Shown here one piece after another: positions 9,263-62,128 of a DNA stretch of 64,000 bases. This DNA is from a virus (Duplodnaviria; Caudoviricetes). The notes under the pieces are model-generated. The model did not search any database. It was not told the origin of the DNA and saw nothing but the letters and a program-made list of their open reading frames with translations. The stretch is taken from the IMG/VR virus record IMGVR_UViG_2061766007_000959; one strand, 5' to 3'. The position numbers and the translations under genes are program-made. Numbering within the stretch: the stretch's first letter is position 1; the number at the start of each line of letters is the position of its first letter.

Positions 9263-10801
9263 ATGAATTTTAAGAATTTAATGGGCGTAAAGACCGCAAG
9301 ACGGTCAAGCCTGAATAAAGTTAGGGACAGCCGTCGTATCAGTGACGGTCTAAGCACAGAGGAATATACTGAACTGAAAAAACAATTCGGTTCGTTCGTT
9401 GCTCAGAACAGACGTGATATTAAGAAAGTGTCTTTGGGCGACCGTGATATTGACGGTACACGTACATTTTTTGAGTTTAACACATATTATGTGGACAACG
9501 AGTTGTCTAATCAGACTATTGAGGAAATCAAAGACTATTACGAGAACGTCGCGTCAACATACGGTGAGTATCTGAATTACCGTAACACAAAGATACAGGA
9601 AATGTCTTACAGTGAAGAGGATGAGGTGCTGAATGATTTGATAGTTGAATTTTCAGAATACTTACAGGGTCGGTATGACGACAACACCTTGCGTGATTTT
9701 CTTTTACAAGCCGTTGTTTACGGTGGTACAGAGGGTATCGATGCGTTTGAAAAGAAACTTTTTGCCGCGCTCGGTGTTCAGAATAGCGAGGAAATAGAAG
9801 ACTATTTCGCTACCAATCCGAAAAACGTACAGTCTAAGTTTGAAATAGGTGATTCTGTCGAATACCAACAGAACAGTCATACTATTATCGCTGAAATAAC
9901 CGACAAAGAGTTTGGTTGGGAAGGTTGGGTTTATGCGATAGAAGGTGTTGACGAGAGCGGTGACTATTGGAAAGTTGAGTTGATGAGCGGCGGTGTTTCT
10001 GAGAAAAAACTAAAACCGCAGATTCCTGTTTCCGATTCCCGTAAGGTCAAAGACGGTTTAGAGTATAATTATATCTATGAGTTGGACGATATGATTAACG
10101 AAAAACCTATTGACGAGGTTATTAAAATGTTGGGTGATGATTGGACGCTGTCGAGGGATTTCACAGATGATAGTGTTATTGGTAAGCCGTGGCAGACTTG
10201 GTATTACGAGTTTGTTAGCGGTGACACAAAACAGGACGGTGACGAAGAATACTTAATATTGGGTACTATGAACAAAGGTGGCAGGGTATTTTATGTGAGT
10301 ACAAACTGTAATCAACCGCGTTTTGTAAGACCTCACAGACTTTCCGACAGTCGTCGTGTGAAAGATTCTTTGGGCGAGGACGAATACGAGGAATACCTGA
10401 ACGAACTCGGTGAGGGTCTTGACGAGGACGAGTTTATTATGGGTGGTGAATCGCGTCTCGGTATGCCTTACGGTACAGCAATGCGTCAGTACGACCCGAT
10501 AGCGTTCAACGTGGGTTACGACGAGTGGGTGCGCGAGAACGAAGACGATGACGACGAGTACAAGTTGGAACAGATTGCCGACCTTCTCGAAGAGGGCTAT
10601 CGTTCAGGCTATGACCCACAATGGGACTTAGACGTTACTGTTGACGGTCAGGATATTTCCGAGTTCAACGATGACGACAAAGACCTGATTTATCAGGACA
10701 TCGCATACGTTGTGAAAGACGGTTACGACAACTATCAGGGAATCGAGACCGAACTGTCTGACGGTTCTATCGTCTATGTTGATTTCACTCTGAATTATTG
10801 A
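9263..10801 (+). CDS. acidic multidomain polyprotein with repeated DSRRVKD-like linkers
   Basis: VRDSRRISD, VSDSRKVKD and LSDSRRVKD separate D/E/Y-rich modules. Confidence 0.75.
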   Translation: MNFKNLMGVKTARRSSLNKVRDSRRISDGLSTEEYTELKKQFGSFVAQNRRDIKKVSLGDRDIDGTRTFFEFNTYYVDNELSNQTIEEIKDYYENVASTYGEYLNYRNTKIQEMSYSEEDEVLNDLIVEFSEYLQGRYDDNTLRDFLLQAVVYGGTEGIDAFEKKLFAALGVQNSEEIEDYFATNPKNVQSKFEIGDSVEYQQNSHTIIAEITDKEFGWEGWVYAIEGVDESGDYWKVELMSGGVSEKKLKPQIPVSDSRKVKDGLEYNYIYELDDMINEKPIDEVIKMLGDDWTLSRDFTDDSVIGKPWQTWYYEFVSGDTKQDGDEEYLILGTMNKGGRVFYVSTNCNQPRFVRPHRLSDSRRVKDSLGEDEYEEYLNELGEGLDEDEFIMGGESRLGMPYGTAMRQYDPIAFNVGYDEWVRENEDDDDEYKLEQIADLLEEGYRSGYDPQWDLDVTVDGQDISEFNDDDKDLIYQDIAYVVKDGYDNYQGIETELSDGSIVYVDFTLNY

Positions 10802-10827
10802 TTTTAATTCCCAATTCAATAGAAAGG

Positions 10828-10859
10828 CACGGGGGACAGAATGTTTCCCGTGTTTTTTT
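10828..10859 (+). terminator. intrinsic terminator
   Basis: CACGGGGGACA-GAA-TGTTTCCCGTG plus T7. Confidence 0.75.
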
Positions 10860-10907
10860 GTTTGTCTGTAACAAATACTGTATTATATTTGCAAAAAAAT
10901 AACAATA

Positions 10908-11384
10908 ATGTCAGAACAAACAGCGAACATATTGGCGAAAAAAATCGCCGAGGGTACGGCGAACCGCGAGGAGCGCGGACTGTCCCTGAAAATGATAAAC
11001 ACCCAACTCGCCATCGAGTACGTCACGGGTCTCGACGACGTCAAGGCGTTTGTAGAGCGTCTGAAAGAGTTGAGAAAGAAAATGTCAGACAAGTTTATCG
11101 AGAAGGTCGAGAAACAGATGGACGCCGAGGAAATCGAGCCTGAGGTTATGTTCCAATACCTGACGACAATAAGCAACAAGGAACTGCAATTGGTGTCCGA
11201 GTACAGGAAACTGTTACAGGGCAACCGACAACTGTTCGACGAGGACACAATGTCAGAAGAGGACAGGGTCATTCTGCGCCTGTTGAGGTCGTTCAGTTCG
11301 ACAGACCAAAAACGGGACTTTTTCAAGATTGTCGCCGAGTATATGCAGGACAAGGGCGCGGTTGACGCTGATATTGTAGAATAA
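10908..11384 (+). CDS. helical protein, possibly terminase small subunit-like
   Basis: All-helical 158 aa ending in VDADIVE; weak inference only. Confidence 0.3.
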   Translation: MSEQTANILAKKIAEGTANREERGLSLKMINTQLAIEYVTGLDDVKAFVERLKELRKKMSDKFIEKVEKQMDAEEIEPEVMFQYLTTISNKELQLVSEYRKLLQGNRQLFDEDTMSEEDRVILRLLRSFSSTDQKRDFFKIVAEYMQDKGAVDADIVE

Positions 11385-11441
11385 ATATTTTTATTGTATA
11401 TTTGCGGAAAATAAAACAGTTTAACTTAAATATACAAGACT

Positions 11442-12026
11442 ATGAGAAACAGAATGACAAGACGCGTGAAAGACGCTTTTGACGAGGACGAAGAGCCTAA
11501 CCAACTGATAGACGTTGAGGTTACGTTTTGTTGGGACGACTATTTGTTTCAAGAAAACTATGAAGAGGACAGAGAAGAGTACGGACTGCCTGAGGAAATA
11601 GACAGTGAGTTGGTGACGGAAATAGCAATGGACATAGACCGCGAGTTGTGTCGGGTTATATCCGACTATTTTGGTAAGCATTATTGTTCATATCACAGTG
11701 GCAGTAACGGTTATGGTGGCGATTTGACTTGCTTTGACACAAGTGTTGAGGAATCTGTACTGTTTGACAAATTGAGCAGTTACGACATTCCGTTCTCGGA
11801 CGCTGAAATCAGGAACGACGATATTTACTTGCATTTGGACAACAGCAACAGCGGCGTTTACGGAATGTTTGGTAGCGCAATAGACGATTTTATCGACAGA
11901 AAATACACTGACGACGTGAGCAGAAGAATCGCGATAGACATTATGGAAATCAACGAAATGGGTGCTGACCTGTATATCACAAACCCGTCTGAACGTATTA
12001 TTCAGTTGGTTCAAGAAAATATTTGA
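11442..12026 (+). CDS. highly acidic protein with basic RRVKD leader
   Basis: MRNRMTRRVKD followed by a D/E-rich body. Confidence 0.7.
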   Translation: MRNRMTRRVKDAFDEDEEPNQLIDVEVTFCWDDYLFQENYEEDREEYGLPEEIDSELVTEIAMDIDRELCRVISDYFGKHYCSYHSGSNGYGGDLTCFDTSVEESVLFDKLSSYDIPFSDAEIRNDDIYLHLDNSNSGVYGMFGSAIDDFIDRKYTDDVSRRIAIDIMEINEMGADLYITNPSERIIQLVQENI

Positions 12027-12049
12027 TAACAACGTACATACGAATCAGT

Positions 12050-12083
12050 AAAACACGAACCTTAAAAAAGTTCGTGTTTTTTT
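12050..12083 (+). terminator. AAACACGAA/TTCGTGTTT terminator, copy 1
   Basis: Perfect stem plus T run. Confidence 0.7.
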
Positions 12084-12160
12084 ATAACAACCTGTTGTTA
12101 TATTAAAATTATTTATATATTTGCGTCACCGTTTCAATAGTGGGGCGGATAACTTTAACA
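12083..12160 (+). promoter_or_regulatory. conserved early-promoter module, copy 2
   Basis: TATAACAA-CCTG-TTGTTATA; TATATTTG at 12116; same hairpin as copy 1; TAACTTTAACA. Confidence 0.8.
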
Positions 12161-12170
12161 ACAACAGAGT

Positions 12171-12515: not shown

Positions 12516-12535
12516 ACTTTAAAACAATAACAACA

Positions 12536-14895: not shown

Positions 14896-14907
14896 AGGAC
14901 TGCGGTT

Positions 14908-21544: not shown

Positions 21545-22584
21545 GTTACGTCAACGACAACGAGAAAACTATAACACCGCGCCTGAAAGTCAAGGTGCTG
21601 AGTACGAACAACCGTTTGGGTGTTCTCGTTCCCATGCCTAACGCTAAGACGGCGGCTGTGCTGTATGTCGAGCAGGACTTGAACAAGGACGAGCAGTCGG
21701 TCGCCCGTAACAATATCGGTATCACCGACGAAATGTACGCCGCGATGTCGGGTGAGATAGTGAACGAGGATTTTCAGGTTATGGGCGTGAACGTCGGCAG
21801 TTTCAACGACGGACATTGGGTTCGGGCGAAAAAGCCTGACGGTACGCCGCACACGACTTGGGAAGTGCTTAGGGAAATGCTGACAAAGGTTATAGACGTA
21901 ATCGCCAACAAACCGACAACCGTCCTGAACTCGACGTCGTCCGTGACTAAATTGGAATTGGGTTCGACCCTGACGCAGACGCTTTCGGTCACATACACGG
22001 ACGGTTATTTCAGCGGACAGAGCGGTTACACGTACAGTCAGGACGCAGGCTGTGAGCGCGGCACGACTATATACAAGCGCGGCAACGAAATAATAACAGC
22101 TACTGACACGTACACGTTCACCTCGACAGGAAACGTCGTGTTCAAGGCGGAAACCGATTATGAGGCGTCAACGGTCATTCCTGTCAAGAATGACGGAACG
22201 GAATCAGAGGTTCGCATAAACGAGGGTACGGCGACGGCGACGCGCACGATAAACGTTGACAAGAAACTGTTTTACGGCAACGTGTCGAGCAAGATTACGG
22301 ACAACGCGTCAGTCAGGGCGTTGAACAATTGGGAATGGAGCAGGGGTATGACAGTCACGCTGTCGAACGTTGGTAGCGGTTTCGTGCTTGTTATGCCGAG
22401 CGGACGCGTCCTGAAGACGGCTGTCACGGGCAACAACCAATACTTAAAGAACGACACTCTGAACGAGTTTGAGGAATACAAGATAACGATGTCGTACGCC
22501 AACGAATCGACGGAACAGTACAACGCGTTCCTGTTCGTGCCTGCGACACCGATGGACACTAACGTAACAATAACGATACAGTAA
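21541..22584 (+). CDS. tail fibre/appendage protein
   Basis: EQ..ARNNIG fibre motif; VG.....G...EVLREML module; Thr-rich. Confidence 0.65.
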   Translation: MSYVNDNEKTITPRLKVKVLSTNNRLGVLVPMPNAKTAAVLYVEQDLNKDEQSVARNNIGITDEMYAAMSGEIVNEDFQVMGVNVGSFNDGHWVRAKKPDGTPHTTWEVLREMLTKVIDVIANKPTTVLNSTSSVTKLELGSTLTQTLSVTYTDGYFSGQSGYTYSQDAGCERGTTIYKRGNEIITATDTYTFTSTGNVVFKAETDYEASTVIPVKNDGTESEVRINEGTATATRTINVDKKLFYGNVSSKITDNASVRALNNWEWSRGMTVTLSNVGSGFVLVMPSGRVLKTAVTGNNQYLKNDTLNEFEEYKITMSYANESTEQYNAFLFVPATPMDTNVTITIQ

Positions 22585-24368
22585 TGGCGAACAGTTTTGA
22601 TTTATCGGTAAACGTCAGGAACGCCAACCCGTCGGCGAACATAGATTTCTATTACGGCACGTACGAATCGAAAGAGGCGGCGTGCGCGGCTGTGCCGTCG
22701 GCTGTCCGTATGATAGGCAAGACGGTCGGAATAATCGAGAACGGCTCGGTTGTCGAGTATTGGTGGAAGTCAGGTATAGCCGACGAGGACTTGGTGCTGA
22801 AATTAGGGTACAGCGAGGTCATAGACGGTTACACGGGCGAGTTCACGCATCTTGGCGAAACCGATTTCGTCAAGATTCCGAAAGACGTTCACCAAATGGG
22901 CGATTACCCCGTCGTTCAGTGCTACCTGAACGGACGCGCCGTCCTGTGCAACGTTGACAACGACCTCGGCGACCTGACCGTGTCGTGGGGTTCTGTCGGA
23001 CAGATAACCGACAACGACGTCCTGACCGTGTATATCGGTGAATCAGAGCGCAGATTCGTGTACGAGACGGGCTTGGTGAACGAGTTTACCGTGCCTAAGT
23101 CCTTTCACGAGTGCGGTGACAACCCGTTCGTTCAGTGTTGGCTCGACGGGAAACTGACCCTGTTCGGGTTGGAGAACGAGGGCGGCGATATAACGGTATC
23201 GTGGGACGAGGACATAACGATACAGGACGAACTCTACGTGACGTTCAGTTCCGACGTCTATGTCGGCACTTTCACCAATCCTGAGGTCGGGGGCAGTTAC
23301 ACGATACCCAAGGCTACGCACGGGCGCGAGAAACCTATCGTCGAGTGTTGGCTTGACGGCAAACTCGCGCTGTTCGACATTCAGAACAGCAACGGCGACC
23401 TGACCGTGACTTGGATGCCCGATAATGGCGTCAGTGCGTTGTCGCCGCTTGTCGTCCTTGTGACAGAGCAGAAAGCCAAGTCGGTGTCGCACGACATAAA
23501 GGACTTGGTTGTCATAGGCGAGAGACGGGCAGGTGACGGCGGAATAACCCCGACGGTTGACGTCGGCGGAATCAGCAAGGGCGTGTTCATAGAAAAGGAC
23601 AGGCTGTTGAACAAGTTACTGCGTGATATGCTGACACCGACACAGTACCCGACGATAACACAGCCTGCGGCTACAATCGAGACGTCGGCGACGGACGCTC
23701 AGAGGCTGTTGAAGGTCGGAAGTTCGATTCAGACCTCGATTTGGACAAACTACTCACAGGGTGACATAACGCTCGACGGCACTGTTCAGGGACACACGGC
23801 AGGGTCGGCGACAAAATACGTGTTCACGGACGGCGTGACCGAGACGGACAACGGTACGGACAATTCTATAACCCCCGTGATACAGAGGGACGCAGAGTGC
23901 ATTGTGACATACACGGGCGAGGTGACGTTCGAGGACGGAGACCAACCTTATGACAATGAGGGTCACAAATACGGTGACAGATTGTCAGGCGCGACGATAA
24001 ACACGTCGAACGGGGTGTCGTTCGAGTTTGTTTACCCGATTTACGCAAACACGAATATCGAACACCTGAGCGACACATACGAACAGCCGCTTGTCAGCAA
24101 GTCAAGGGGGTATGTCGAAATCACATTCCCGTTACAGCACGGCGGAACGGTTGACCGTTACACGTTTGAAATTCCGTCGTCGATGAATGTTACGGAAATC
24201 AAATATTTTAATACATTTGCAATACGGTACGAACCCGAAAACCGATTGAACGATTTTAAAGTTGTAAACACGGATAAAAACGGCGTACCATATAAACGTT
24301 ACACATACAAGAACAATACGTATATGGAACAAAACACATTCAAAATAATTTGGGAAAACAACATTTAA
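22584..24368 (+). CDS. mosaic fibre/appendage protein with three internal repeats
   Basis: N-terminal YYG...EYWWK module; 3x P.V[QE]C[WY]L.G...GD.TV.W; VGGI module. Confidence 0.65.
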   Translation: MANSFDLSVNVRNANPSANIDFYYGTYESKEAACAAVPSAVRMIGKTVGIIENGSVVEYWWKSGIADEDLVLKLGYSEVIDGYTGEFTHLGETDFVKIPKDVHQMGDYPVVQCYLNGRAVLCNVDNDLGDLTVSWGSVGQITDNDVLTVYIGESERRFVYETGLVNEFTVPKSFHECGDNPFVQCWLDGKLTLFGLENEGGDITVSWDEDITIQDELYVTFSSDVYVGTFTNPEVGGSYTIPKATHGREKPIVECWLDGKLALFDIQNSNGDLTVTWMPDNGVSALSPLVVLVTEQKAKSVSHDIKDLVVIGERRAGDGGITPTVDVGGISKGVFIEKDRLLNKLLRDMLTPTQYPTITQPAATIETSATDAQRLLKVGSSIQTSIWTNYSQGDITLDGTVQGHTAGSATKYVFTDGVTETDNGTDNSITPVIQRDAECIVTYTGEVTFEDGDQPYDNEGHKYGDRLSGATINTSNGVSFEFVYPIYANTNIEHLSDTYEQPLVSKSRGYVEITFPLQHGGTVDRYTFEIPSSMNVTEIKYFNTFAIRYEPENRLNDFKVVNTDKNGVPYKRYTYKNNTYMEQNTFKIIWENNI

Positions 24369-24380: not shown

Positions 24381-26363
24381 ATGTCGGCAGAAGATAGGAA
24401 ATACACAGTCGGTGCGGTTACGTTCAACAATATGTTTCAGGTTGGTATGGGCGCACCAATTGACAACCGAACCGTCGTTAGACGCAAGGCGCATTTGGTA
24501 AGCGGTATCGGCGAAAACAAATATTACGGTTTGACCGTTTACGTGACGGGCGAATATGATTCGGAATTGGACGACGATTTCCCTGCACCGCAAACGGACG
24601 AAAACGGTATCGTCGAATCGGAAGTCGGTTTTTATTATTACAAAGGCGACGTTGACGGCGAGAACAAAGCCGCAAGTTGGGTTAAAATGTTGACAATCGC
24701 CGACGGCGGTTCGGGCGGTTCGGGCGGCACAACCATTCCCGTTGACGTTCTACCCGTTGACGAGCCGAACGGTGTCGCGCCGTTGGACGAGAACGGTCTT
24801 GTCCCGTCGGGAAACCTGCCGTCGTATGTTGACGACGTGATTGAGGGTTACGGTCGAATGGAAGGCACAGACCCGAACAAATACATTGTGTTTTACAAAA
24901 AACAGGTCATCGACGGTTATTTGTACAACGGGGCGTTTTATTCGGATTCCGCGCACACGACCGAAATAACCCCGTCCGCCGAAAAATATTATTATGACAA
25001 AACGGGTTCGGCGTTGTATTATTACGATTTTGAAAACACCGAATACGTAGCGTTCTACGAATACGAGGTCATCGACGGTTATTATTACAACGGGGCGTTT
25101 TATTCGGACGCGGAACACACGACCGAAATCACGCCTGCCGCGAACAAATATTACCGCAGTTTGGCAAATTCCCTCGTGTATTATTACGATACGGAAAACG
25201 CCGAATACAAATTGGTTGCGGACGAGGACGCGCCGTTTATCGTCGGCGGAAAATCGAAAATATACGTTGACCTTTTGACCGACAAAACATACCGTTGGGG
25301 CGGTTCGGTTTATACCGAAATATCGAATACACAGGTATCAAAGTCGTTCACAACGAACATCGCCGTCGGCGGTATCGCGACAGGTACGACAATCGATTCG
25401 ACGATGAGCCTTGAAGACGTTTTGAAAAAAATTCTTGTGAATGTTTACCAACCGTACAGAACGGCGGACGCAAGCGCGTCAATCGCGAAACAATCGGGTG
25501 ACGGTATGGTTATCGAAATCGGTAGCAAGTCGAAATCGTACACGTTCAAAACAACGGGCAAACGTGAATACGTCAAACGTAGCAACGGTACAACCGACGA
25601 AACATTGGGTTCATACGCAGGTGCGATTTCAAAACATTCGTTGTATCATTCGGGCAACAGTGACACCAAATTAAAGGACATAACAACAACCGACACCGAC
25701 AGAACGTTCACGGTTACTATCAGTTCAAACGGCGTGTTCCAAATCGACGAAACCGACATACAGGTCGGCGGTGTCAATTTGACAACCTCGTCGGAACAAA
25801 TCGTCAAATTCAAAGGCGGTGTCACATTCGACGGCGGCGAACATTACAACGATAGTTCGGGCGTGCCGTCATCGACCCTCGCGGCGTTCGTCGGACAGGA
25901 GAAAAAATCGGGTACACAGAACGTTGAGGTCGTTTGCCCCGTTTACGCCAATACGAACAGCGCGGCGTTAAGCACAACCGTTTCACAAGGCGCGAAGTCG
26001 AAATCGGTGTTAAGCAGTACGACCGATTTTTCGACAAAGACACCCGAACAATCAACGAATATCGGTTTGAATATTTCGTTCCCGAGCCATTCAAGCGCGA
26101 CCCCGTACACATTCGAGATTCCGAACGGTTGGACGTTGCGGTCGGTATGGTGGTGGGACACAGGTTTCAACGTTTGGCGTTGTCATTACAACGGAACAAC
26201 GGTCAACGATTGGGCGTTGAAAGCGTACACGAACGGAAACAACGAAACCGTTTATTATCACGATAAAGAGGTGAACGGTGTTCACGTTGATTACAAGACA
26301 TATTATTACACGTCACCCGATAATATCGGCAACCGTATTTACAAAGTGCTTATATCGCAATAA
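24381..26363 (+). CDS. tail fibre protein
   Basis: GAPIDNR N-terminus; NGVAPLDENGLVPS..LPSYVDDVIE fibre motif; 2x Tyr-rich repeat; VGGI module. Confidence 0.75.
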   Translation: MSAEDRKYTVGAVTFNNMFQVGMGAPIDNRTVVRRKAHLVSGIGENKYYGLTVYVTGEYDSELDDDFPAPQTDENGIVESEVGFYYYKGDVDGENKAASWVKMLTIADGGSGGSGGTTIPVDVLPVDEPNGVAPLDENGLVPSGNLPSYVDDVIEGYGRMEGTDPNKYIVFYKKQVIDGYLYNGAFYSDSAHTTEITPSAEKYYYDKTGSALYYYDFENTEYVAFYEYEVIDGYYYNGAFYSDAEHTTEITPAANKYYRSLANSLVYYYDTENAEYKLVADEDAPFIVGGKSKIYVDLLTDKTYRWGGSVYTEISNTQVSKSFTTNIAVGGIATGTTIDSTMSLEDVLKKILVNVYQPYRTADASASIAKQSGDGMVIEIGSKSKSYTFKTTGKREYVKRSNGTTDETLGSYAGAISKHSLYHSGNSDTKLKDITTTDTDRTFTVTISSNGVFQIDETDIQVGGVNLTTSSEQIVKFKGGVTFDGGEHYNDSSGVPSSTLAAFVGQEKKSGTQNVEVVCPVYANTNSAALSTTVSQGAKSKSVLSSTTDFSTKTPEQSTNIGLNISFPSHSSATPYTFEIPNGWTLRSVWWWDTGFNVWRCHYNGTTVNDWALKAYTNGNNETVYYHDKEVNGVHVDYKTYYYTSPDNIGNRIYKVLISQ

Positions 26364-26632
26364 TGGGCAAGGAATACACAGTCGGCGCGGTCAATTTCCC
26401 GAATATGTTTAATGTCGATATGGGTGCGCCCCTCGACAACAGGGACGTTGTGCATACATACGCCGACCTTGAAACCGCAATAGGCGAAAGCAAATATGTC
26501 GGTGAGTTGGTTTATGTGACGACCGATTCGACGGTGAATAACGTGACGTACCCGAAAGGCTATTACACGTACAACGGGACGGCGTGGGTTCAATTCAAAT
26601 CGGCTGTTCCGCAAGTGTTGAGGTTCGTATGA
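26363..26632 (+). CDS. stand-alone copy of the fibre N-terminal module
   Basis: YTVGAV.F.NMF.V.MGAP.DNR shared with the ORF at 24381. Confidence 0.7.
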   Translation: MGKEYTVGAVNFPNMFNVDMGAPLDNRDVVHTYADLETAIGESKYVGELVYVTTDSTVNNVTYPKGYYTYNGTAWVQFKSAVPQVLRFV

Positions 26633-28273: not shown

Positions 28274-29494
28274 ATGAGTTACGATATTACACAAGCGGTC
28301 AAAATAACGAACGCGTCCCCGAACGTCGATTGGTATTACGGGGGCGACGACGGTGTTTGGGCAAGCCTCGCGGCGGCGAAAACGGGTGTCCCGTCGGTTG
28401 TCCGAATGATAGGCAAAACGGTGTTGGTGAACGTTGCCGCGTCGGGTGAAACGCCCGTTTACAAAGAATATTGGTGGAAGGACGGTATAACAGACAACGA
28501 CTTGGTTGAAAAATCAGGTGGCGGTTCGGTGACGAGTGTCAAGGTTGGCACGACGACATACACGCCGACAAGCGGTGTTATATCGTTGCCTGCGTATTTA
28601 CCGTTGTCGTCAACGGGCAGTACGGTATGGAGTACAAGTTCGGACACACCCGTATATTTTGGCGGAAACAGCTCAACCGAGACATATATCGGTTTCAAAA
28701 AAGACACGGGTCAAACAATGGGTTATATCGGTGTCAAAGAAGTGAGCGGCACGGCGCACCCGTATTTTTACGACGGGACGAGCAAGGAAATGGCGTTGAA
28801 ATCGGACATACCGACAACATTGCCTGCGTCGGACGTGTCTTCGTGGGCGAAGGCGTCAACAAAACCGAGTTATACGTTGGACGAGGTTTCGGACGGAACA
28901 ACACGTAAACTTGCGAATTATTTACTATTGTCGGGCGGAACGGTTACGGGGCGAATTGTCAGGGAAGGCGGCGGACAATGGATTCAAGGACGTGCGCAAG
29001 CCGTTATTTTTGGAAACGGAACAAATACGTCGGCATGGAATACGGTATGGTCGCAAAAAACAAAAAACGGCGCGTGGACGGCAGGTTGTTTGGGTAGTGA
29101 AAATGTTTTAAGATTTGTATATGACACCGATACGAATTTTAACGCAGGAACGAACACCGCAACATATACAATATCATTCCCGACGGCAACAGGCACAGTT
29201 GCGTTGACATCGGATTTATCAAGTTATTTACCGTTATCGGGCGGAACAATGACAGGCACACTGTCGGTAAATAATATAAACGCAACGGATTCCAATGGTA
29301 TGCTTGCATACAAGCCGACAAGTTGGACGGGTGTTTCAAGTTCACAATGGGGTGTTGGTGCAATAAATTGCCAAGGCGTTATACGTAGTAACGATTCCGT
29401 TTTAAAACATTATAAAGGTAGTAATACATATAATATTATTGATTCGTCAATGATATACGCGTCGGGTGACACATTATATATCAATACACAATAA
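28274..29494 (+). CDS. tail fibre protein
   Basis: N-terminal module shared with the ORF at 22584; WAKASTKPSYT and YLPLSGGTMTG fibre motifs. Confidence 0.75.
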   Translation: MSYDITQAVKITNASPNVDWYYGGDDGVWASLAAAKTGVPSVVRMIGKTVLVNVAASGETPVYKEYWWKDGITDNDLVEKSGGGSVTSVKVGTTTYTPTSGVISLPAYLPLSSTGSTVWSTSSDTPVYFGGNSSTETYIGFKKDTGQTMGYIGVKEVSGTAHPYFYDGTSKEMALKSDIPTTLPASDVSSWAKASTKPSYTLDEVSDGTTRKLANYLLLSGGTVTGRIVREGGGQWIQGRAQAVIFGNGTNTSAWNTVWSQKTKNGAWTAGCLGSENVLRFVYDTDTNFNAGTNTATYTISFPTATGTVALTSDLSSYLPLSGGTMTGTLSVNNINATDSNGMLAYKPTSWTGVSSSQWGVGAINCQGVIRSNDSVLKHYKGSNTYNIIDSSMIYASGDTLYINTQ

Positions 29495-35048: not shown

Positions 35049-35093
35049 ATTGAAAATGTTGTATATTTGTGAGTAATTTTAAACTTTATAATT

Positions 35094-35492
35094 ATGGCTA
35101 AGAATTTGAATTATAAGAAAGCGAGAGCGATAAAAGATTCGCAAAAACGCGTTGAGGATATGCGCTCGGGTGGTTCAGGCTCGCTACGGTCGTCAATATT
35201 CAACCGTCAGGACGAGGCGTTGACAAAAGAGGCGATTTCCGAATTTAAAGATTCGTTTTGGTCTAACGGCGGCAAGTGCGACGTTATCGGCGGCAACTTG
35301 TCAGGCTCGAACGGCAAGAAACACGTTTGTTGCGCGTATTTGCAGATTCCTGACAAAGTGCCTATGGGCGGCGGTGTTGACGCGCTGTTGGCTAAGGTTG
35401 ACTATGACAAGAACAAAAAAATATTCAAGGCTTATTACCGTCCGAAAAACGGCAAATGGGGACAGTCTAAAAACGTTGACGAAGAGGTTTAG
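35094..35492 (+). CDS. protein with basic IKDS..RVED leader
   Basis: MAKNLNYKKARAIKDSQKRVED; own TATATTTG promoter at 35062. Confidence 0.65.
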   Translation: MAKNLNYKKARAIKDSQKRVEDMRSGGSGSLRSSIFNRQDEALTKEAISEFKDSFWSNGGKCDVIGGNLSGSNGKKHVCCAYLQIPDKVPMGGGVDALLAKVDYDKNKKIFKAYYRPKNGKWGQSKNVDEEV

Positions 35493-36897: not shown

Positions 36898-37152
36898 ATG
36901 AATATCAAGGGTTTAATGAACAAACGGGTGTCGGATAGCAATTACGATTTCACCGACACGGAAATTAAAAAAGTAATCTCAGGGGTTTACAAAATCGAAC
37001 GTCAGCCGAACGGTATTATCGTATATACCGAAAACGCGTTCACAAGCCTGACTAAATTAAATGCGCTGAAAGGCATATTCGGTGTTTCGGATATTGAAGT
37101 TGACTTTCGTTACGACCGTACACACGGGTTGATTTACACGTTGATAAAATAA
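36898..37152 (+). CDS. small protein with MNIKGLMNKRVSD leader
   Basis: Leader resembles those at 9263 and 39940; promoter TATATTTG at about 36844. Confidence 0.65.
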   Translation: MNIKGLMNKRVSDSNYDFTDTEIKKVISGVYKIERQPNGIIVYTENAFTSLTKLNALKGIFGVSDIEVDFRYDRTHGLIYTLIK

Positions 37153-37179: not shown

Positions 37180-37473
37180 ATGAGGGACGTACGGAACGCG
37201 AAATTGCGCCGCATATTGAATGCCGATGGTATCAAGGATGTGGTTTTGAATTTTTCCGAAGGGTTTGTGTCGGTATGGTCGGAAGACGATTTTACCAACG
37301 ACATATTGTTCCGTGCGGACAATTCGATTGAAACCCGATTGTTCAAGGATTACACGGTCGAAGAATGGGCGGATATGATTCGTGAAATATACGACGAGGG
37401 GTTGGAAAATTACGAGGAAAGTCAACAAAGAATACAGCGGAGTGTTATCCGAATGGGTGGAAACACATACTGA
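37180..37473 (+). CDS. small acidic protein
   Basis: Basic N-terminus (...RRILNADGIKD), acidic body. Confidence 0.6.
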   Translation: MRDVRNAKLRRILNADGIKDVVLNFSEGFVSVWSEDDFTNDILFRADNSIETRLFKDYTVEEWADMIREIYDEGLENYEESQQRIQRSVIRMGGNTY

Positions 37474-38172: not shown

Positions 38173-38238
38173 AGATTTTTGTTGTTTGATTGAAAAACAT
38201 TATCTTTGTGAAAGTAAAAAATTAAAATTGATTATACA

Positions 38239-39921
38239 ATGGCACAATCAGTATTAGACTTGATAGACGTTAAGTTTCAGGATGCCACAGGGCATACCTC
38301 AGTTTCCTCGACCGACATAATCGGTATGGTGATGCCTTTCTATTGGGGCGAATCGGACAAGGTCTCTGTTTACGGCAGAACGACATTCTACGAAATGTTC
38401 CCCGAATCGTTGCCGATAGGTGTCAAGAGTATCGAGAATACCGACCTGTACTCGGGCTACGCTCAGATAAAGGCGGCGTTCGCCCACGGCGCAGGCGAGG
38501 TTGAAATATACCGCCCGTCGAACGGTTGGAAATATCAGAACCTGACCATCAGCAAGACAGGCGGCGTTGTCGGTGACAGCGGTTCGCTAATCGCGGCTGA
38601 CACCAAGTACGACGAGACAAAGGCTGTGACCGTCGCCCTGAAATACGCAGGTTTCATTCCTCAGTCGCTCGCGTACGGATACGAGAACGTGAAAATCGGT
38701 GTGTCCCTGTCGAACTCGACCGACTATACGGACGGTGCTTTGATAAAGATAAACGTGTACGGCGTCGCCGCCGACAGCACTGAAACCCTGTTGGAGACAT
38801 TCGAGGGCGCGGCGAGCGCGACAGCCAAAATAGGCGGCGAATCAATCTACCTTGAAGACGTCGTGAACGGCAACAGTATGTTTATCGACGTGCGTGCGAC
38901 GGACAATGTCGTCATTCAGGCGGCGATAGCCGAGACTGAGTTTGCCTGCAAGACATACGACGAATCAGGCGTGTTCACACCTGCAACCTCAGGTCAGAAC
39001 CCGACACCTGCCTCGTTCACATCTGCGTTCAAGTTGGGAATCGACAACGGCTACGCCATGTTCAACGACTATGAATCGAGCGTATGCACGCTTATTATAA
39101 ACCCGTTCGTGACTAAGAGCGCGAAACAGAGCAACACCGAACTTGTAACCGAGTATGACGCGTATCTGAAAAACATAGCCGAGTACAGAAAGAACTGTTT
39201 GGCTGTCGTCGGATACCCGACAGACAACAACTCGGTTTACAGCAAGGAGAACATACAGACCTATTTCAACGCTCACGGCTCGAAGGGCAGTAAGTTCTGT
39301 ATCGCCGTTCAGGGTCAGGAATACCTGAGCGTGTTCGGTCAGCGTTTCACCCTGAACTGTGTCGGCGGCTATTGCGGCGCGATGGTGAACATAGCGAAAG
39401 AGGCTCACCTGAACCAAATCGCGTCGGGCTACGTTTACGGCAACTACGGCGGCTCGTTGAAGAAGTCGCTGTTGTCAGGCGCGGTGATAGACCTTATGGA
39501 AGAGGGAATCAACAGCGTGTACACGTCGAAACGCGGTAATCTTATTTGGGGTACTCGGACGCGCTACGGACGTCAGTCGTCATATTTCGGAAAAATAAAC
39601 GTAATGCGTGTTACAACCATGCTGTTGAAAAACATATTCCCGATAGCTATCGAGACACTGCACACGGACGCCGCCTCGAACCCTATCACACGGGCGTCGC
39701 TGAGTACAATGCTGAACAGCATTATCGACACGTATATCGCGAACCAAGACCTGCACGCCGACAGTTACGCCGATTGTAGCGATAGTATAAACACCGACTA
39801 CCTGACAAAGGGCGGCACAGTCCTGAACATTATACTGATGTTGCACTTTATCGGTTTGGTTGAGCGTGTAAGTATCAAGATTATCGCGACAGACACCTCT
39901 GTTACGGCTGAGTTTGTTTAA
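38239..39921 (+). CDS. tail sheath protein
   Basis: N-terminal F.WG; AEYRKNCLAV; GINSV...LIWGTRT...KINVMR sheath C-terminal motifs. Confidence 0.88.
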   Translation: MAQSVLDLIDVKFQDATGHTSVSSTDIIGMVMPFYWGESDKVSVYGRTTFYEMFPESLPIGVKSIENTDLYSGYAQIKAAFAHGAGEVEIYRPSNGWKYQNLTISKTGGVVGDSGSLIAADTKYDETKAVTVALKYAGFIPQSLAYGYENVKIGVSLSNSTDYTDGALIKINVYGVAADSTETLLETFEGAASATAKIGGESIYLEDVVNGNSMFIDVRATDNVVIQAAIAETEFACKTYDESGVFTPATSGQNPTPASFTSAFKLGIDNGYAMFNDYESSVCTLIINPFVTKSAKQSNTELVTEYDAYLKNIAEYRKNCLAVVGYPTDNNSVYSKENIQTYFNAHGSKGSKFCIAVQGQEYLSVFGQRFTLNCVGGYCGAMVNIAKEAHLNQIASGYVYGNYGGSLKKSLLSGAVIDLMEEGINSVYTSKRGNLIWGTRTRYGRQSSYFGKINVMRVTTMLLKNIFPIAIETLHTDAASNPITRASLSTMLNSIIDTYIANQDLHADSYADCSDSINTDYLTKGGTVLNIILMLHFIGLVERVSIKIIATDTSVTAEFV

Positions 39922-39939: not shown

Positions 39940-40137
39940 ATGAATTTCAAGAAAGCTATGAGACGGAAAATAAAAGACGAATGGGCGGTCGCGCCGTCCT
40001 CGTCTTTGGTTAAGAGGCTCGTCAGAGGGTTGGACGAATCAACTAACATAATCGAGCGGTATTTCCCGAAAAATCAGACAGAGAGGGAGTTTGTCAGCGC
40101 ACTGAAAGATATGGTTGAATATTTTAACAAATACTAA
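39940..40137 (+). CDS. small protein with MNFKKAMRRKIKD leader, inserted between sheath and tube
   Basis: 65-aa ORF carrying the shared leader. Confidence 0.6.
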   Translation: MNFKKAMRRKIKDEWAVAPSSSLVKRLVRGLDESTNIIERYFPKNQTEREFVSALKDMVEYFNKY

Positions 40138-40149: not shown

Positions 40150-40689
40150 ATGAGTAGAAAGATAAACACATTCGCGAGTTTCATTACACAGCCGCTGAAC
40201 GTCTATAATTTCCAAATACGTATCACCTCGCCGACAGACAAGGTTGACGAATCGGTGCTTATGGTTGTGGAATCGACCAAGTTCCCGTCAGAGAAATTAC
40301 GTGAAATGGTGCTGAACTATCAGGGTGAGAAAATATCGTACCCTGCCAAGCCTGAGAACGGCGGAACGTGGACTATCACGATTCCTGAGGGTGACAAGGC
40401 TCAGGTGCGCAAGGAACTCGACCGTTTGAAAAACAAACAGTACGACCAAAAGTCGGGTGTTATGTCACCGTCCTTTTGGTACGATATTGAGGTGTTCCAC
40501 CGCGACTTGCAGGACAACATTGTGTTCTCAATCGTGTTACACGGCTGTTGGATGATGGGTCGCAACGAACACGAGGTCAAGACGGACAACGTGACAGACA
40601 GCGTCAAGTGGAGTTACGATTTCAAGTACCAATGGATTGAGGACAAGGTAAACGACAACGAGGGTTCGCCCAACCCGTTCGGTGAGTAA
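40150..40689 (+). CDS. tail tube protein (T4 gp19-like)
   Basis: Follows the sheath; P......NY.G..I.YP, WTIT, L.GCW, F.Y.W pattern. Confidence 0.8.
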   Translation: MSRKINTFASFITQPLNVYNFQIRITSPTDKVDESVLMVVESTKFPSEKLREMVLNYQGEKISYPAKPENGGTWTITIPEGDKAQVRKELDRLKNKQYDQKSGVMSPSFWYDIEVFHRDLQDNIVFSIVLHGCWMMGRNEHEVKTDNVTDSVKWSYDFKYQWIEDKVNDNEGSPNPFGE

Positions 40690-58263: not shown

Positions 58264-58264
58264 T

Positions 58265-58456: not shown

Positions 58457-58463
58457 AAATATT

Positions 58464-59795
58464 ATGACAGCAACATTCTTTTACTCGATAGCAGGTCTGA
58501 AACAGTCGAACACGATTGACGACCTGTTGCACAATATGTCAACGATTGAGTACATAAACCAAAAGGACAGGAACGTAGCCGAATACTGCCTGCAATGCGC
58601 GGAACACGGGAACTATCCGTCGGCTGACTATTTCGTGAACATATACGACAAGCCGAAAACCGTCCTGAAGACAGAGGCTGAAATAGTCCTGCATTTCAAA
58701 GAGTTGGTTGACTTTCACGCGAGACAGGCGGTACAGCGCAACGTCACGACGGCAATAAACGAGACGTCAACGTCGGCTGACCTTCTGACGCGCCTGTCAA
58801 AGATAATCACCGACACAGAGAACGCTAACGACAGCGAGTTCAGTTTCGACGACTGCAAGCCCGAACTGTACGGCGACGTTGACAAGCCGCTCGACAGCGG
58901 ACTTATGACGGGAATCGAGGAACTTGACAAGACGACAAACGGTTTCCAACGGGGTACGGTGGCGAGTATCTGCGGTTTCACGGGACACGGAAAGTCAACG
59001 GCGTGCAACAGCGCGGCGTACCAAAATATCGTAAGCGGAAAGAAAGTCCTGATTATATCAATTGAGTTGCCGCCCGACATGGTTTGGAAACAGTTTGAGA
59101 CGCGCTATATGTTCGAGCGAGAACTCGCCGTTGACGTTCACAACATGGAACATCACACGTTGGACGACAGTGTCGGCAAACAGGTTGTATCATACGAGCC
59201 TGATTTTAAGCGCGACGTAGTTCCCAATCTGTTGGTGATAGACGAATCGAAAATCACGAAAAAGATAATGACCGATTATCGAAAGATAAACAAACTGTTC
59301 AAGGCGGCTGAGCGCAAACTCGGCGGCTTGGACATGGTGATTGTTGACCACGTCGGTCAGTTGGAACTGTTGTACCCTGAGACGGGAAACATAATTCTGA
59401 AACAACTCACGTCAGCGGCTAAGACGTTCAAGAACGAAAACGGGGAAAAGATTGTCATGGTGTGGGCTGTGCAGTGCAACCGCGAGGGCAACAGGCGCGC
59501 GATACGCCGCGAGGGTCAGTATGACTTGCAGGCGATAGCCGACCTTAACGAGGTCGAGCGTTCGTCGTCATACTGTGTGTTCCTGTACACGTCGGACGCT
59601 ATGAAAATAACACAGGAGACGAAAGTGTCTATGCTTAAAAACCGTCTCGGTGTTCCGATTCCTGTCCCGTTTGTCACGTCGTTCACCCCGTCGGTCGTTA
59701 TGGTCGGCAGAAAATTTGACAGGGCGAATATGAGCGACGTTGATTTCTCGTTTACCGAAATGGGCGGTGAGTACGAGGATATACCGCCGTTCTAA
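58464..59795 (+). CDS. dnaB: DnaB-like replicative helicase
   Basis: TGIEELD...GF, GFTGHGKS (Walker A), SIEL, VIVDH, VQCNR, KNR; acidic C-terminus. Confidence 0.88.
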   Translation: MTATFFYSIAGLKQSNTIDDLLHNMSTIEYINQKDRNVAEYCLQCAEHGNYPSADYFVNIYDKPKTVLKTEAEIVLHFKELVDFHARQAVQRNVTTAINETSTSADLLTRLSKIITDTENANDSEFSFDDCKPELYGDVDKPLDSGLMTGIEELDKTTNGFQRGTVASICGFTGHGKSTACNSAAYQNIVSGKKVLIISIELPPDMVWKQFETRYMFERELAVDVHNMEHHTLDDSVGKQVVSYEPDFKRDVVPNLLVIDESKITKKIMTDYRKINKLFKAAERKLGGLDMVIVDHVGQLELLYPETGNIILKQLTSAAKTFKNENGEKIVMVWAVQCNREGNRRAIRREGQYDLQAIADLNEVERSSSYCVFLYTSDAMKITQETKVSMLKNRLGVPIPVPFVTSFTPSVVMVGRKFDRANMSDVDFSFTEMGGEYEDIPPF

Positions 59796-59860
59796 AAAAG
59801 TTTTTTGAATTATTGTGAAAAAACAATATTTTTGTGATACGTTTTTTAAACAAATACGTA

Positions 59861-62128
59861 ATGAGTAAAGATTTTTTGGCAGGTTTAGTTAAAGTCCGCA
59901 ACGGTGAAAACCGAACAGAGAGTTCGGCACGCGGACTTGAAGTCGTGCGGCAGAAGAGAACAGTGCTTGACGACGCTATTACAAATAACAAAAAGACAGA
60001 GTTGCCGCGTGTAAGCGACAAGTCATATTACAAGCCCTCACGCATTTCGCGCATTTCACAGGTCGAGCGTCCTCAGAAGACGCAGTACATTGTGTTGGAC
60101 AGCAGGGCGATTGATGAAATAGCCGAAATGGGCAACGCTCAGAGACGCAAGTTCCTGTCGCGCCTGTCTGACGGTGAGCGTCGCAAGGTTCTGCGCGCGC
60201 TGAACGCCGTGAGGGTTCGTGACGACTTGGAGAACGGCGAGGTTGAGCGTCGGGATTTGAACCGTCAACTCGAACCTCAGGACTTGTATGTAATCAACGA
60301 CCTGTTGACAAAATACGCCTATTCGAGAAAGGACGACGAGTTGAGAATGCTTGAAAGCTACAAGGACATTCTGAACGACAGCGACCCTCAGGAGGCGGCT
60401 GTGTTGGACATTATCAACAAGGTTATCGACAACGAACTCGATATGACAGCCGACGAAGAGGAACTGAACATACTTTACGATTTCTTAGAGGACAACAAGT
60501 TCGAGACCGAATCTTTACAGACCGCGCTGACAATCGCTTTCGGTGACACTATTGACGAGAACGGCGACGGTGTCGTCGGTGACGAGCCTGAGGGTAACGA
60601 ACTCGGTGACGAGGAACTTGATATTGAGGGTGACGACTTGGGTGGTGACGACCTTGATATTGAGGGTGACGAACTCGGCGGCGAGCCTGAGGACGAGACA
60701 CCCGACCTGAACATAAACCTCGGTGATTCACGGAGACGCCAACCGAGACCGATGAAACGCGTCGCTGACAACAGAAACGGGTCAGAGCGTCCTGAAAGAC
60801 GTATCGAGCGCAAGCGTGTCGAGGACACCGCCGAGGAATCGTTCGAGGACGTCGAGGCTTTGATTATAGACGACGCCTACGACCTTGCCGACGATATGCT
60901 GAACGGTCGCGCTATGAACGTGAGCGATTCTATGAACGAAATAGTAGAGCGTTACACGAAACGTTGCGGCGAGCGTGTCCGCGTGAAAGACTGCATGGAC
61001 AGGGCGTTCGCCCACTCAGTGCAGGAAATATCGCTTGAAAAGTCGGCGCACGTACAGAAAGTGAAGGACGATATTATAGACCAAATAGACGAGCAGTTGG
61101 GTGACGAATCAGGCGAGAGCGGTGACGGCAAGACATTGCTCGAAAGTTTGGGTTCGGCGTTAGAGGCGTTCGCGAACGGTGACACGAGCGAGTTGCAGGC
61201 GTTGGCTGACCTGTCCGTTGACGACATAAACCCTGAAGAGGAATCAATAGACGAGGACTTTGAGGGTAACGAACTCGGTGACGAGGAACTTGATATTGAG
61301 GGTGACGGTTTGGAAACGGACATCGAGACAGAGAGCGGCAAGGGTGACGAACTCGGTGACGAGGACGACGAGGAATCTGAGGACGAGGACGAGGATGAAG
61401 ACGACGAGGACAAAAAGGTTGACAAGATAAAACTGAACCTGCACGATTCAGCCGTTATGTTGGCAAAATGGTTGGTCGCAAAGGACAAACGCGCCAACAA
61501 GATTATCGACGCCCTGAAAGACGAGTTGCCGATACTGAAAAAGTACAATTTCAAAATATCCGATTCAGAGTTGATTGAAGAGGAATTTGAACCTGTCGAG
61601 GTTATCGAGCCTTTGCTGAACCGCGAGGAATTTCACTCAGTGTATCAGACACCGCCGTACGTCGGCGAAATGGCTAAGGAATCGAACCCCGTAGAGTGTC
61701 TGTCCGCGACAGCCGTGAACTACGGCGACCTGTCGCCTGTCATTCAGGTTGAGTGCGAGAACGGAACGGTTCAGAATTGGATTCCGATTATGGGTTCGAG
61801 CGAGAATATCGCGGAACAGTTGAACGTTGAGGGCGCGAATGTTGAAAAGATTATTTCCGACAACTGTGTTCCTGCGGAGGACTACTATTCAGCGGCGGCT
61901 AAGACGAACAACTTGGGTATTATAGACAGTAAGTTCTACAAACGCAAGTTGAGTGACGAGTGTTGGGTCTGCGACGACGTTCCTGAGTTCATAAAGGACG
62001 AGGGTGTCGAGGGCGGCGCGATGTTCGCACAAGAGGGACTGACGACTATGCCGAAAGTCGTACCGTCAGGCTCGGTTCTTATTTACGGAACGAAATACAA
62101 CTATTACAATAAATCTAAAAAACAATAA
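59861..62128 (+). CDS. large acidic prohead core/scaffold-like protein with many [VIL]-x-D sites
   Basis: RVSD, RVRD, RVAD, RVED, RVKD, KVKD, KISD, KLSD and similar; acidic low-complexity tracts. Confidence 0.55.
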   Translation: MSKDFLAGLVKVRNGENRTESSARGLEVVRQKRTVLDDAITNNKKTELPRVSDKSYYKPSRISRISQVERPQKTQYIVLDSRAIDEIAEMGNAQRRKFLSRLSDGERRKVLRALNAVRVRDDLENGEVERRDLNRQLEPQDLYVINDLLTKYAYSRKDDELRMLESYKDILNDSDPQEAAVLDIINKVIDNELDMTADEEELNILYDFLEDNKFETESLQTALTIAFGDTIDENGDGVVGDEPEGNELGDEELDIEGDDLGGDDLDIEGDELGGEPEDETPDLNINLGDSRRRQPRPMKRVADNRNGSERPERRIERKRVEDTAEESFEDVEALIIDDAYDLADDMLNGRAMNVSDSMNEIVERYTKRCGERVRVKDCMDRAFAHSVQEISLEKSAHVQKVKDDIIDQIDEQLGDESGESGDGKTLLESLGSALEAFANGDTSELQALADLSVDDINPEEESIDEDFEGNELGDEELDIEGDGLETDIETESGKGDELGDEDDEESEDEDEDEDDEDKKVDKIKLNLHDSAVMLAKWLVAKDKRANKIIDALKDELPILKKYNFKISDSELIEEEFEPVEVIEPLLNREEFHSVYQTPPYVGEMAKESNPVECLSATAVNYGDLSPVIQVECENGTVQNWIPIMGSSENIAEQLNVEGANVEKIISDNCVPAEDYYSAAAKTNNLGIIDSKFYKRKLSDECWVCDDVPEFIKDEGVEGGAMFAQEGLTTMPKVVPSGSVLIYGTKYNYYNKSKKQ
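60589..61307 (+). repeat. 47-nt direct repeat (60589-60635 and 61261-61307) encoding EGNELGDEELDIEGD
   Basis: Identical DNA at both sites. Confidence 0.85.

What the first reader, a model, noticed from the sequence alone, without database searches (positions are those of the whole stretch)
9263..62128. Candidate capsid-targeting 'basic leader + [VIL]-x-D cleavage' system for packaged cargo proteins
SEEN: unrelated, scattered ORFs share a short basic N-terminal leader ending in [RK][VI]xD. These are 9263 MNFKNLM...KVRDSRRISD, 11442 MRNRMTRRVKD, 35094 MAKNLNYKKARAIKDSQKRVED, 36898 MNIKGLMNKRVSD, 39940 MNFKKAMRRKIKD, and possibly 37180 ...RRILNADGIKD. Their bodies after the Asp are unrelated, and several are very acidic. 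Some are inserted singly into structural operons: 39940 sits between sheath and tube, and 35094 and 36898 lie near the neck genes. The 59861 protein carries about 15 such sites. KNOWN: T4 internal proteins (IPI/II/III) use a short capsid-targeting sequence that the prohead protease gp21 removes after [ILV]-x-E, and IPI* inhibits the GmrSD restriction enzyme. phiKZ gp175 likewise cuts head proteins after an x-x-E motif. INFERENCE: this phage uses an Asp-specific equivalent, a portable tag that loads a swappable set of small effectors (possibly anti-defence) into the head for injection.
Basis: partly seen in the sequence, partly recalled or inferred. Interest (0 to 1): 0.9.

Follow-up and report, generated by a model that had tools for sequence, protein, structure and literature searches.

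The report
Asp-cutting head-protease tag on phage cargo
An uncultured 142-kb T4-like phage marks its capsid protein, head protease, scaffold and about a dozen unrelated proteins with one short basic peptide ending in aspartate; this is most likely where its T4-type head protease cuts (T4 cuts after glutamate), so the phage probably loads and processes a fast-changing set of cargo proteins in its head.

Summary
All quoted leaders exist. The bare [KR][VI]xD motif occurs 112 times against 53.6 expected (z 8.5), whereas the Glu and Asn controls are flat. Flanking positions are biased too (P1' S/G/A, basic P5). A tandem form, DS[KR][KR][VI]xD, occurs 13 times against 0.03 expected.

A T4 gp21-type (S77) prohead protease lies just outside the window, next to a gp23-type capsid gene. 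The capsid propeptide carries two conserved sites, and the Asp of the second is the only invariant residue in its first 90 columns. The protease's two self-sites align with Glu sites in other S77 proteases. The scaffold-like protein has six sites.

Corrections: 37180 is not a member; 59861 has 11 sites, not 15; N-terminal enrichment alone is weak, because many sites are internal junctions of modular polyproteins.

Cleavage, capsid targeting and injection are all inferred, and anti-defence function is untested. I rate this a new variant of the T4 capsid-targeting/gp21 system.

The scan reached the same reading earlier from another window of this same genome (e1-5744587). I retested it independently here.

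The parts
9263..10801 (+). 512-aa acidic modular cargo polyprotein. It has an N-terminal leader with a tandem site KVRD|SRRISD|G (nt 9317-9346) and two internal junctions: VSDSRKVKD|G (nt 10028-10054) and RLSD|SRRVKD|S (nt 10337-10366).
   Evidence: Homologues match only 10-50% of its length, with modules reassorted and the same junction motif. One homologue carries LPD11.
11442..12026 (+). 194-aa very acidic protein (net -31) with the leader MRNRMTRRVKD|A (site at nt 11463-11474).
   Evidence: The leader is invariant in orthologues at 72-84% identity.
35094..35492 (+). 132-aa mildly basic protein with the leader MAKNLNYKKARAIKD|SQKRVED|M (strict site at nt 35148-35159).
   Evidence: It shares only the 22-aa leader (55% identity) with the 171-aa protein between terminase and portal outside the window.
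36898..37152 (+). 84-aa protein with the leader MNIKGLMNKRVSD|S (site at nt 36925-36936), inserted between two conserved tail-module genes.
   Evidence: It has no counterpart in L008 synteny.
39940..40137 (+). 65-aa protein between sheath and tube with the leader MNFKKAMRRKIKD|E (site at nt 39967-39978).
   Evidence: The gene and its leader are conserved in L024 and L025 and absent in L008.
59861..62128 (+). 755-aa very acidic protein (net -97) whose first ~95 aa are paralogous to the scaffold-like protein. It has 11 [KR][VIL]xD sites (9 strict) between nt 60008 and 61957. It is a probable core/scaffold-type substrate.
37180..37473 (+). It is not a member: it has no [KR][VIL]xD site and reads GIKD|V.

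Best explanation
The phage is a distant T4-like myovirus whose gp21-family (Peptidase S77) prohead protease recognises [KR]-[IV]-x-D|[S/G/A], often written as the tandem form phi-x-D-S-[KR]-[KR]-[IV]-x-D. T4 gp21 instead recognises [IL]-x-E.

Shown by sequence:
- The protease is a gp21 homologue with an intact His/Ser/Asp triad.
- The motif sits at the capsid protein's expected maturation position, at the protease's two self-processing positions, six times in the scaffold-like protein, at the N-terminus of about ten otherwise unrelated proteins, and between the modules of several large proteins.

Inferred:
- Late in infection these proteins co-assemble into the prohead core, with the basic leader acting like the T4 capsid-targeting sequence.
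- The protease activates by self-cleavage, trims the capsid protein, degrades the scaffold-type proteins, removes the leaders and cuts the polyproteins into modules of about 50-240 aa.
- Some modules stay in the head and enter the host with the DNA.

My rough odds: the motif is the protease's cleavage site, about 0.8; the leader also targets proteins to the prohead, about 0.5; the retained modules are injected effectors such as anti-defence proteins, about 0.25.
For: - Peptidase_S77 scores 32.9 bits against a cutoff of 27, directly upstream of the Gp23-type capsid gene.
- T4 gp21 (5JBL) is the only PDB sequence hit and the top fold match (E 1.4e-9, target TM 0.73).
- H75, S133 and D160 are invariant in the 30-sequence alignment and 99-100% conserved among 147 family members.
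- Capsid homologues down to 42% identity keep H[RK][IV]AD|S and [KR][IV]xD|S; D75 is the only invariant residue in the first 90 columns.
- The protease's N-terminal self-site column is Glu in 100 and Asp in 20 of 147 sequences, with L/I/V at P3 and Ser at P1'. The C-terminal site switches in concert.
- All 14 clade members have Tyr44 where 93% of Glu-type enzymes have Arg.
- Enrichment and flank biases.
- The leader and scaffold sites are conserved in relatives.
- Literature: T4 gp21 self-cleaves, removes 65 residues from gp23, degrades gp22/67/68 and clips the internal-protein leaders (PMC9958956). T4, phiKZ, 201phi2-1 and SPN3US all cut after Glu (PMC5694885). SPN3US prefers Ser at P1' (PMC10052503).
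Against: - There is no proteomic or biochemical evidence; the phage is uncultured.
- The motif's enrichment at N-termini is weak.
- Several chance matches exist, for example 2137, 4799, 51796, and six sites in the DNA-polymerase-like protein, which lack the basic/DS context.
- Most tagged bodies are acidic, unlike the basic T4 internal proteins.
- The sites in 59861 rarely have S/G/A at P1'.
- The tandem form is absent from complete relatives at about 41% capsid identity.
- No cargo body has an assignable function.
Confidence: 0.72

Rival explanations
1. The motif is the protease's site, but the tagged proteins are mostly scaffold/core components. They would be chopped up and expelled before DNA packaging, like T4 gp22, gp67 and gp68, rather than kept as cargo and injected.
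For: - 59861 shares its N-terminal ~95 aa with the scaffold-like protein.
- The multi-site proteins are strongly acidic, with net charges of -60 to -97.
- Multiple cuts per protein match T4 core degradation (PMC9958956).
Against: - The tagged set turns over quickly and its modules are shuffled, which is unusual for scaffolds.
- A homologue carries LPD11, a domain of predicted injected polyvalent proteins.
- One tagged protein ends in a DNA_pol_B_thumb domain.
- The small single-site proteins (35094, 36898, 39940) resemble internal proteins.
Confidence: 0.18
2. The shared N-termini reflect gene-start constraints or a copied DNA cassette (an A-rich start region without a Shine-Dalgarno sequence, plus a promoter element), not a peptide signal.
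For: - Leader genes share TT[TA]AAA at -16/-17 and AT-rich first codons.
- The N-terminal positional enrichment of the motif is weak.
Against: - The upstream element precedes 47 of 215 ORFs of all functional classes.
- The [KR][IV]xD codons vary synonymously.
- The same motif recurs deep inside ORFs.
- It also occurs at conserved capsid and protease positions.
Confidence: 0.04
3. The motif is a short linear motif for something other than the head protease, such as a host or other Asp-specific protease, or a binding or linker element.
For: - Asp at P1 is unknown for characterised S77 enzymes (PMC5694885).
- The motif is basic and could bind nucleic acid.
Against: - No other head-protease family was found (S78 is absent).
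- The motif occupies exactly the positions that are Glu sites in Glu-type S77 proteases, and the gp23-like maturation position.
Confidence: 0.06

Closest known systems
Phage T4 head maturation: gp21 protease (Peptidase S77), the capsid-targeting sequence MKTYQEFIAE, and internal proteins IPI/II/III
   Same: - The protease is homologous in sequence, fold and catalytic residues, and the capsid and portal genes are gp23- and gp20-type.
- A short shared N-terminal leader on otherwise unrelated proteins ends in the protease motif.
- The capsid propeptide is cut near residue 65-75, the protease has self-cleavage sites, and the scaffold has many sites.
- In distant relatives a leader M.FYEDVID|S resembles MKTYQEFIAE|A (PMC8442874).
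   Different: - P1 is Asp rather than Glu, P4 is basic, and sites are often tandem.
- The leaders are basic, and in this phage they show no sequence homology to the T4 sequence.
- Many substrates are acidic modular polyproteins cut internally, whereas the T4 internal proteins are small, basic and cut once.
- The protease has Tyr where Glu-type enzymes have a conserved Arg.
Giant-phage processing: phiKZ gp175, 201phi2-1, SPN3US gp245
   Same: - Both are S77-related proteases.
- Both show multi-site cleavage of long propeptides and ejection proteins.
- Both prefer Ser at P1' and remove a C-terminal part of the protease by autocleavage (PMC5694885, PMC10052503).
   Different: - Those enzymes cut after Glu in (A/S/G)-x-E.
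- Their substrates are cut in N-terminal propeptides, not at repeated inter-module linkers.
Polyvalent proteins of phages and conjugative elements (Iyer et al. 2017, PMC5512222)
   Same: - Both are large proteins made of reshuffled modules, encoded near virion genes and predicted to be packaged and delivered.
- A homologue of the 9263 protein carries LPD11.
   Different: - Processing there is proposed to occur through embedded metallopeptidase domains.
- Here no such domain was found, and the modules are joined by a defined linker matching the prohead protease's site.

Membership tests
Peptidase S77 (T4 gp21-type prohead protease): the enzyme just outside the window, G000:C1:76253-76948(-) | Matches the family profile above the curated threshold | tested here: met
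   PF03420 scores 32.9 bits against a cutoff of 27. Relatives score 37.6 and 44.5 bits; one scores 22.7, below the cutoff.
Peptidase S77 (T4 gp21-type prohead protease) | Catalytic His and Ser (T4 H85/S140) plus Asp are conserved | tested here: met
   H75, S133 and D160 are invariant in the 30-sequence alignment and 99-100% conserved among 147 homologues. GVSSRGLG aligns to the GVASRGLG of the 5JBL chain, and EHP aligns to its NAP; these correspond to the catalytic-dead mutant H85A/S140A described in PMC12991175.
Peptidase S77 (T4 gp21-type prohead protease) | Assemblin-like fold | tested here: met
   AF2 model with pLDDT 85.5. Foldseek's top three hits are the 5JBL chains (E 1.4e-9, target TM 0.73, rmsd 2.5 A), followed by herpesvirus proteases.
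Peptidase S77 (T4 gp21-type prohead protease) | Cuts after Glu in [IL]-x-E | tested here: not met
   This is a sequence proxy only. Both self-site columns, which are Glu in most family members, are Asp in all 14 clade members apart from one C-terminal exception. The capsid maturation site has an invariant Asp. Biochemical specificity cannot be tested here.
T4 capsid-targeting sequence / internal proteins | A short N-terminal leader shared by otherwise unrelated proteins and ending in the protease motif | tested here: met
T4 capsid-targeting sequence / internal proteins | Sequence homology to MKTYQEFIAE | tested here: not met
   The leaders here read MN[FLIY]KK[LA]M..[KR][IV]xD. Only distant relatives have a look-alike, M.FYEDVID|S.
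T4 capsid-targeting sequence / internal proteins | The leader is sufficient to load a protein into the prohead, and the mature protein stays in the head | not testable with these tools
   This needs fusion-protein packaging experiments and virion proteomics.
Polyvalent proteins (Iyer et al. 2017) | Several recognisable effector or LPD domains in one polypeptide | tested here: inconclusive
   LPD11 occurs in homologue P0126, and DNA_pol_B_thumb in one tagged protein outside the window. The window's own proteins have no Pfam or PHROG domain.
Polyvalent proteins (Iyer et al. 2017) | An embedded autoproteolytic (MPTase-type) domain | tested here: not met
   No peptidase domain was found in any tagged protein.

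The most novel reading that the evidence does not exclude
A whole clade of gp21-family prohead proteases has switched P1 specificity from Glu to Asp, possibly through loss of a conserved Arg (Tyr44 here; His44 in a second, independent lineage). These phages use the new site as a universal linker, so that gene fusions and module shuffling build 'effector polyproteins' that the head protease cuts apart inside the capsid for delivery. The switch could also hide the protease from host immune sensors that use Glu-containing loops as protease tripwires (CBASS, PMC12991175).
Probability: 0.25. Interest if true: 0.82.

Novelty: new variant of a known kind. Interest (0 to 1): 0.62.

Why it matters
Every characterised gp21-family head protease cuts after Glu. 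An Asp-cutting clade would widen the known specificity of this enzyme family. It also offers a concrete candidate determinant, Arg to Tyr or His at one position, which can be tested by mutagenesis.

The tag gives a sequence-only way to list probable head-packaged proteins in uncultured phages. That addresses an open problem, because such cargo is usually made of proteins without known relatives.

The linker-joined, reshuffled polyproteins suggest a simple way for phages to evolve and exchange packaged proteins.

Since a bacterial CBASS sensor detects T4 gp21 through Glu-containing loops, a change of P1 residue could matter for immune evasion. That last point is speculative.

Tried and rejected
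- The 190-aa ORF in the gp21 position after the portal is a low-complexity Pro/Glu-rich protein, not a protease.
- An HK97-type S78 protease is absent.
- The copied-DNA-cassette explanation is rejected by synonymous codon diversity.
- The upstream TT[TA]AAA element is not specific to leader genes: it precedes 47 of 215 ORFs.
- PHROG, Pfam and ESM Atlas searches found nothing for the cargo bodies.
- megablast against cultured phages found no match, and the capsid tblastn found only distant relatives.
- The strict tandem motif is absent from three complete relatives at about 41% capsid identity, so it is subclade-specific.
- The full records of L006-L008, L011 and L013 were not available for whole-genome motif counts.
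- N-terminal positional enrichment of the bare motif is not significant (p = 0.08).
- Literature searches found no described Asp-cutting prohead protease. The library is incomplete, so this is not proof that none exists.
Full report
CONTEXT

The window is the minus strand of G000:C1:414-64413, part of a 142,338-bp phage record with direct terminal repeats. All real genes lie on the window's + strand. The window holds early and replication genes, lysis and fibre genes, and the tail module, including the sheath at 38239-39921 and the tube at 40150-40689. The head module lies just upstream of the window. No cultured phage is close: the capsid protein finds only distant T4-like phages and a 42%-identical fragment from human faeces.

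OBSERVATION

All the quoted leaders exist. More of them lie outside the window:
- MNLKKLMDSKKIKD|S
- MNLKRLMDSKRIKD|G
- MNYKKLTNGFVRSRVKD|SRRISD|T
- MKRVKD|S
- MKNLNFKKLQAVID|TKRIND|M
- MSDFLNGLVEVKNNANRVSD|S

The conserved residues use many different codons, so selection acts on the peptide and not on a copied DNA cassette.

Across the proteome, [KR][VI]xD occurs 112 times against 53.6 +/- 6.8 in shuffles (z 8.5). The controls [KR][VI]xE (z 2.1) and [KR][VI]xN (z -0.4) are flat. Positions outside the search pattern are biased as well: P1' is S/G/A at 39% of sites against 18% background (p = 1e-7), and P5 is K/R at 38% against 12% (p = 8e-13).

Listing every site shows a longer tandem form, phi-x-D-S-[KR]-[KR]-[IV]-x-D, for example VSDSRRVKD. 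Its strict core occurs 13 times against 0.03 expected. At DNA level it hits 14 times on the coding strand and never on the other strand or with the control pattern.

- 37180 has no site.
- 59861 has 11 sites, 9 of them strict, not about 15.
- N-terminal positional enrichment of the bare motif is weak (p = 0.08), because many sites are internal.

THE PROTEASE

The ORF in the T4 gp21 position after the portal is a low-complexity acidic protein, not a protease. A six-frame search instead found Peptidase_S77 (32.9 bits, cutoff 27) directly upstream of the Gp23-type capsid gene and directly downstream of three consecutive leader genes. The HK97-type S78 family is absent.

T4 gp21 (5JBL) is the only PDB sequence hit. 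It is also the top structural match of an AF2 model with pLDDT 85.5 (E 1.4e-9, target TM 0.73, rmsd 2.5 A), followed by herpesvirus assemblins. H75, S133 and D160 are invariant in the 30-sequence alignment and 99-100% conserved among 147 homologues. They correspond to T4 H85/S140 (PMC12991175) and to the His/Ser/Asp triad reported for SPN3US gp245 (PMC5694885).

Capsid: among 120 homologues down to 42% identity, the N-terminal region keeps H[RK][IV]AD|S near residue 30 and [KR][IV]xD|S near residues 58-76, just before the conserved DFGPYVMEVWP. In a 26-sequence alignment the Asp of the second site (D75) is the only invariant residue in the first 90 columns. T4 gp23 loses 65 N-terminal residues (PMC9958956).

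Scaffold: the 259-aa protein after the portal has six sites (p < 0.0005 against its own shuffles). Their positions are kept in relatives L006 and L026. 59861 is its N-terminal paralogue.

Protease self-sites: K[IV]xD|S near residue 16 and again near residue 175 are present in all relatives. The second falls in a low-confidence linker of the model.

THE Glu-TO-Asp SWITCH

A deep search with the protease gave 2,730 relatives. In an alignment of 147 of them, the column of the N-terminal self-site P1 is Glu in 100 and Asp in 20, with L/I/V at P3 in 123 and Ser at P1' in 68. [quoted passage not shown] The C-terminal site switches in concert.

All 14 members of this clade have Tyr at position 44, where 93% of Glu-type enzymes have Arg. 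A second, unrelated group with His44 has Asp at the C-terminal site in 6 of 7 sequences, against 6 of 117 for Arg44 (Fisher p = 1.4e-6, not corrected for phylogeny). Position 44 is therefore a candidate specificity determinant. This is inference only, because I could not inspect the model's coordinates.

The characterised relatives (T4, phiKZ, 201phi2-1, SPN3US) all cut after Glu (PMC5694885). My literature searches found no described Asp-cutting member.

THE TAGGED PROTEINS

The fragments between sites are unrelated to one another and often very acidic. 35094 shares only its 22-residue leader with the 171-aa protein between terminase and portal. That is the pattern of the T4 internal proteins, which share MKTYQEFIAE (PMC8442874).

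Homologues of 9263 match only 10-50% of its length. The same modules are reassorted into proteins of 290-810 aa with the same junction motif. Several junctions read NNKD-MKRVKD, which looks like a fossil start codon plus leader. Two such junctions in this genome keep start-region-like DNA upstream. One homologue carries LPD11, a domain of the polyvalent proteins that Iyer et al. predict to be packaged and injected. Those authors proposed processing by embedded metallopeptidases, and none is found here.

The leader of 11442 is invariant in orthologues. 39940 and its leader are conserved between sheath and tube in two relatives, but the gene is absent from the more distant L008, which also lacks 36898 and 37180. 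A relative with 90% capsid identity has one leader gene upstream of the protease where this phage has three.

More distant relatives have their own leaders: three tandem paralogues starting MFAKVVCKRGVKVVD|S, and a conserved 167-aa protein starting M.FYEDVID|S, which resembles the T4 sequence with Asp in place of Glu. They lack the tandem form.

MECHANISM AND LIMITS

The best-supported reading is that the motif is the cleavage site of an Asp-specific gp21-type protease (about 0.8). It is less certain that the basic leader also targets proteins into the prohead core, as the T4 sequence does (about 0.5). Whether the processed modules are retained and injected, or are scaffold-type material that leaves the head, is open. 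The acidic, many-site proteins (59861, and 9263 in part) fit the second option. The small single-site proteins and the domain-bearing modules fit the first. Anti-defence function is untested, and no cargo body has an informative match. Nothing here demonstrates cleavage.

EARLIER SCAN NOTES

Another window of this same genome had already produced the same reading (e1-5744587), and related notes covered the 9263 polyprotein and fossil starts. I treated these as leads and retested them. They are not independent evidence.

Noticed in passing
whole genome; e.g. window 9233-9262, 35064-35093, 38209-38238: TT[TA]AAA sits 16-17 nt before the ATG of 47 of 215 ORFs of all functional classes, and there is no Shine-Dalgarno sequence. 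It is a general gene-start element (promoter- or ribosome-related), not specific to leader genes.
   Followed up: partly
protease family alignment (own protease at G000:C1:76253-76948, minus strand; proteins P0157, P0171, P0203, P0223, P0228, P0236): A second, unrelated group of S77 protease-scaffold fusions has His instead of the conserved Arg at position 44 and Asp-type C-terminal self-sites (e.g. KISD|S, VVND|S). Asp specificity may therefore have arisen at least twice.
   Followed up: partly
G000:C1:99586-100770 (minus strand), about 36 kb upstream of the window: A 394-aa protein with five sites ends in a DNA_pol_B_thumb domain (1.1e-13) and contains a CxC...H-like segment. It may be a tagged nucleotidyltransferase-like cargo protein.
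   Followed up: no
G000:C1 proteins at rc 42764 (aa 247) and rc 48728 (aa 92); homologues P0123, P0126, P0127: Internal junctions such as NLKHNN-MKRIND and NNKD-MKRVKD look like fossil start codons plus leaders, with start-region-like DNA upstream. This suggests polyproteins built by fusing neighbouring leader genes, or else internal translation starts.
   Followed up: partly
window 22584-24368 vs 28274-29494, and 24381-26363 vs 26363-26632: Pairs of fibre-like genes share their first ~45 residues (MANSFDLSVNVRNANPS... vs MSYDITQAVKITNASPN...; MSAEDRKYTVGAVTFNNMF... vs MGKEYTVGAVNFPNMF...). They are probably shared attachment modules on different receptor-binding proteins.
   Followed up: no
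L026:12823-13998 (minus strand): The relative with 90% capsid identity carries a Cas12f1/TnpB-like gene on the opposite strand just downstream of the capsid gene. This phage has no such gene there.
   Followed up: no
L007:1-1810: The large terminase of a distant relative is 1114 aa long and contains an intein splicing domain.
   Followed up: no
G000:C1:80381-81271 and 79418-80311 (minus strand), upstream of the window: Two tandem 296/297-aa paralogues between the head-fibre-like gene and the leader genes give weak Hint-domain hits at residues ~100-144. Their role is unknown.
   Followed up: no
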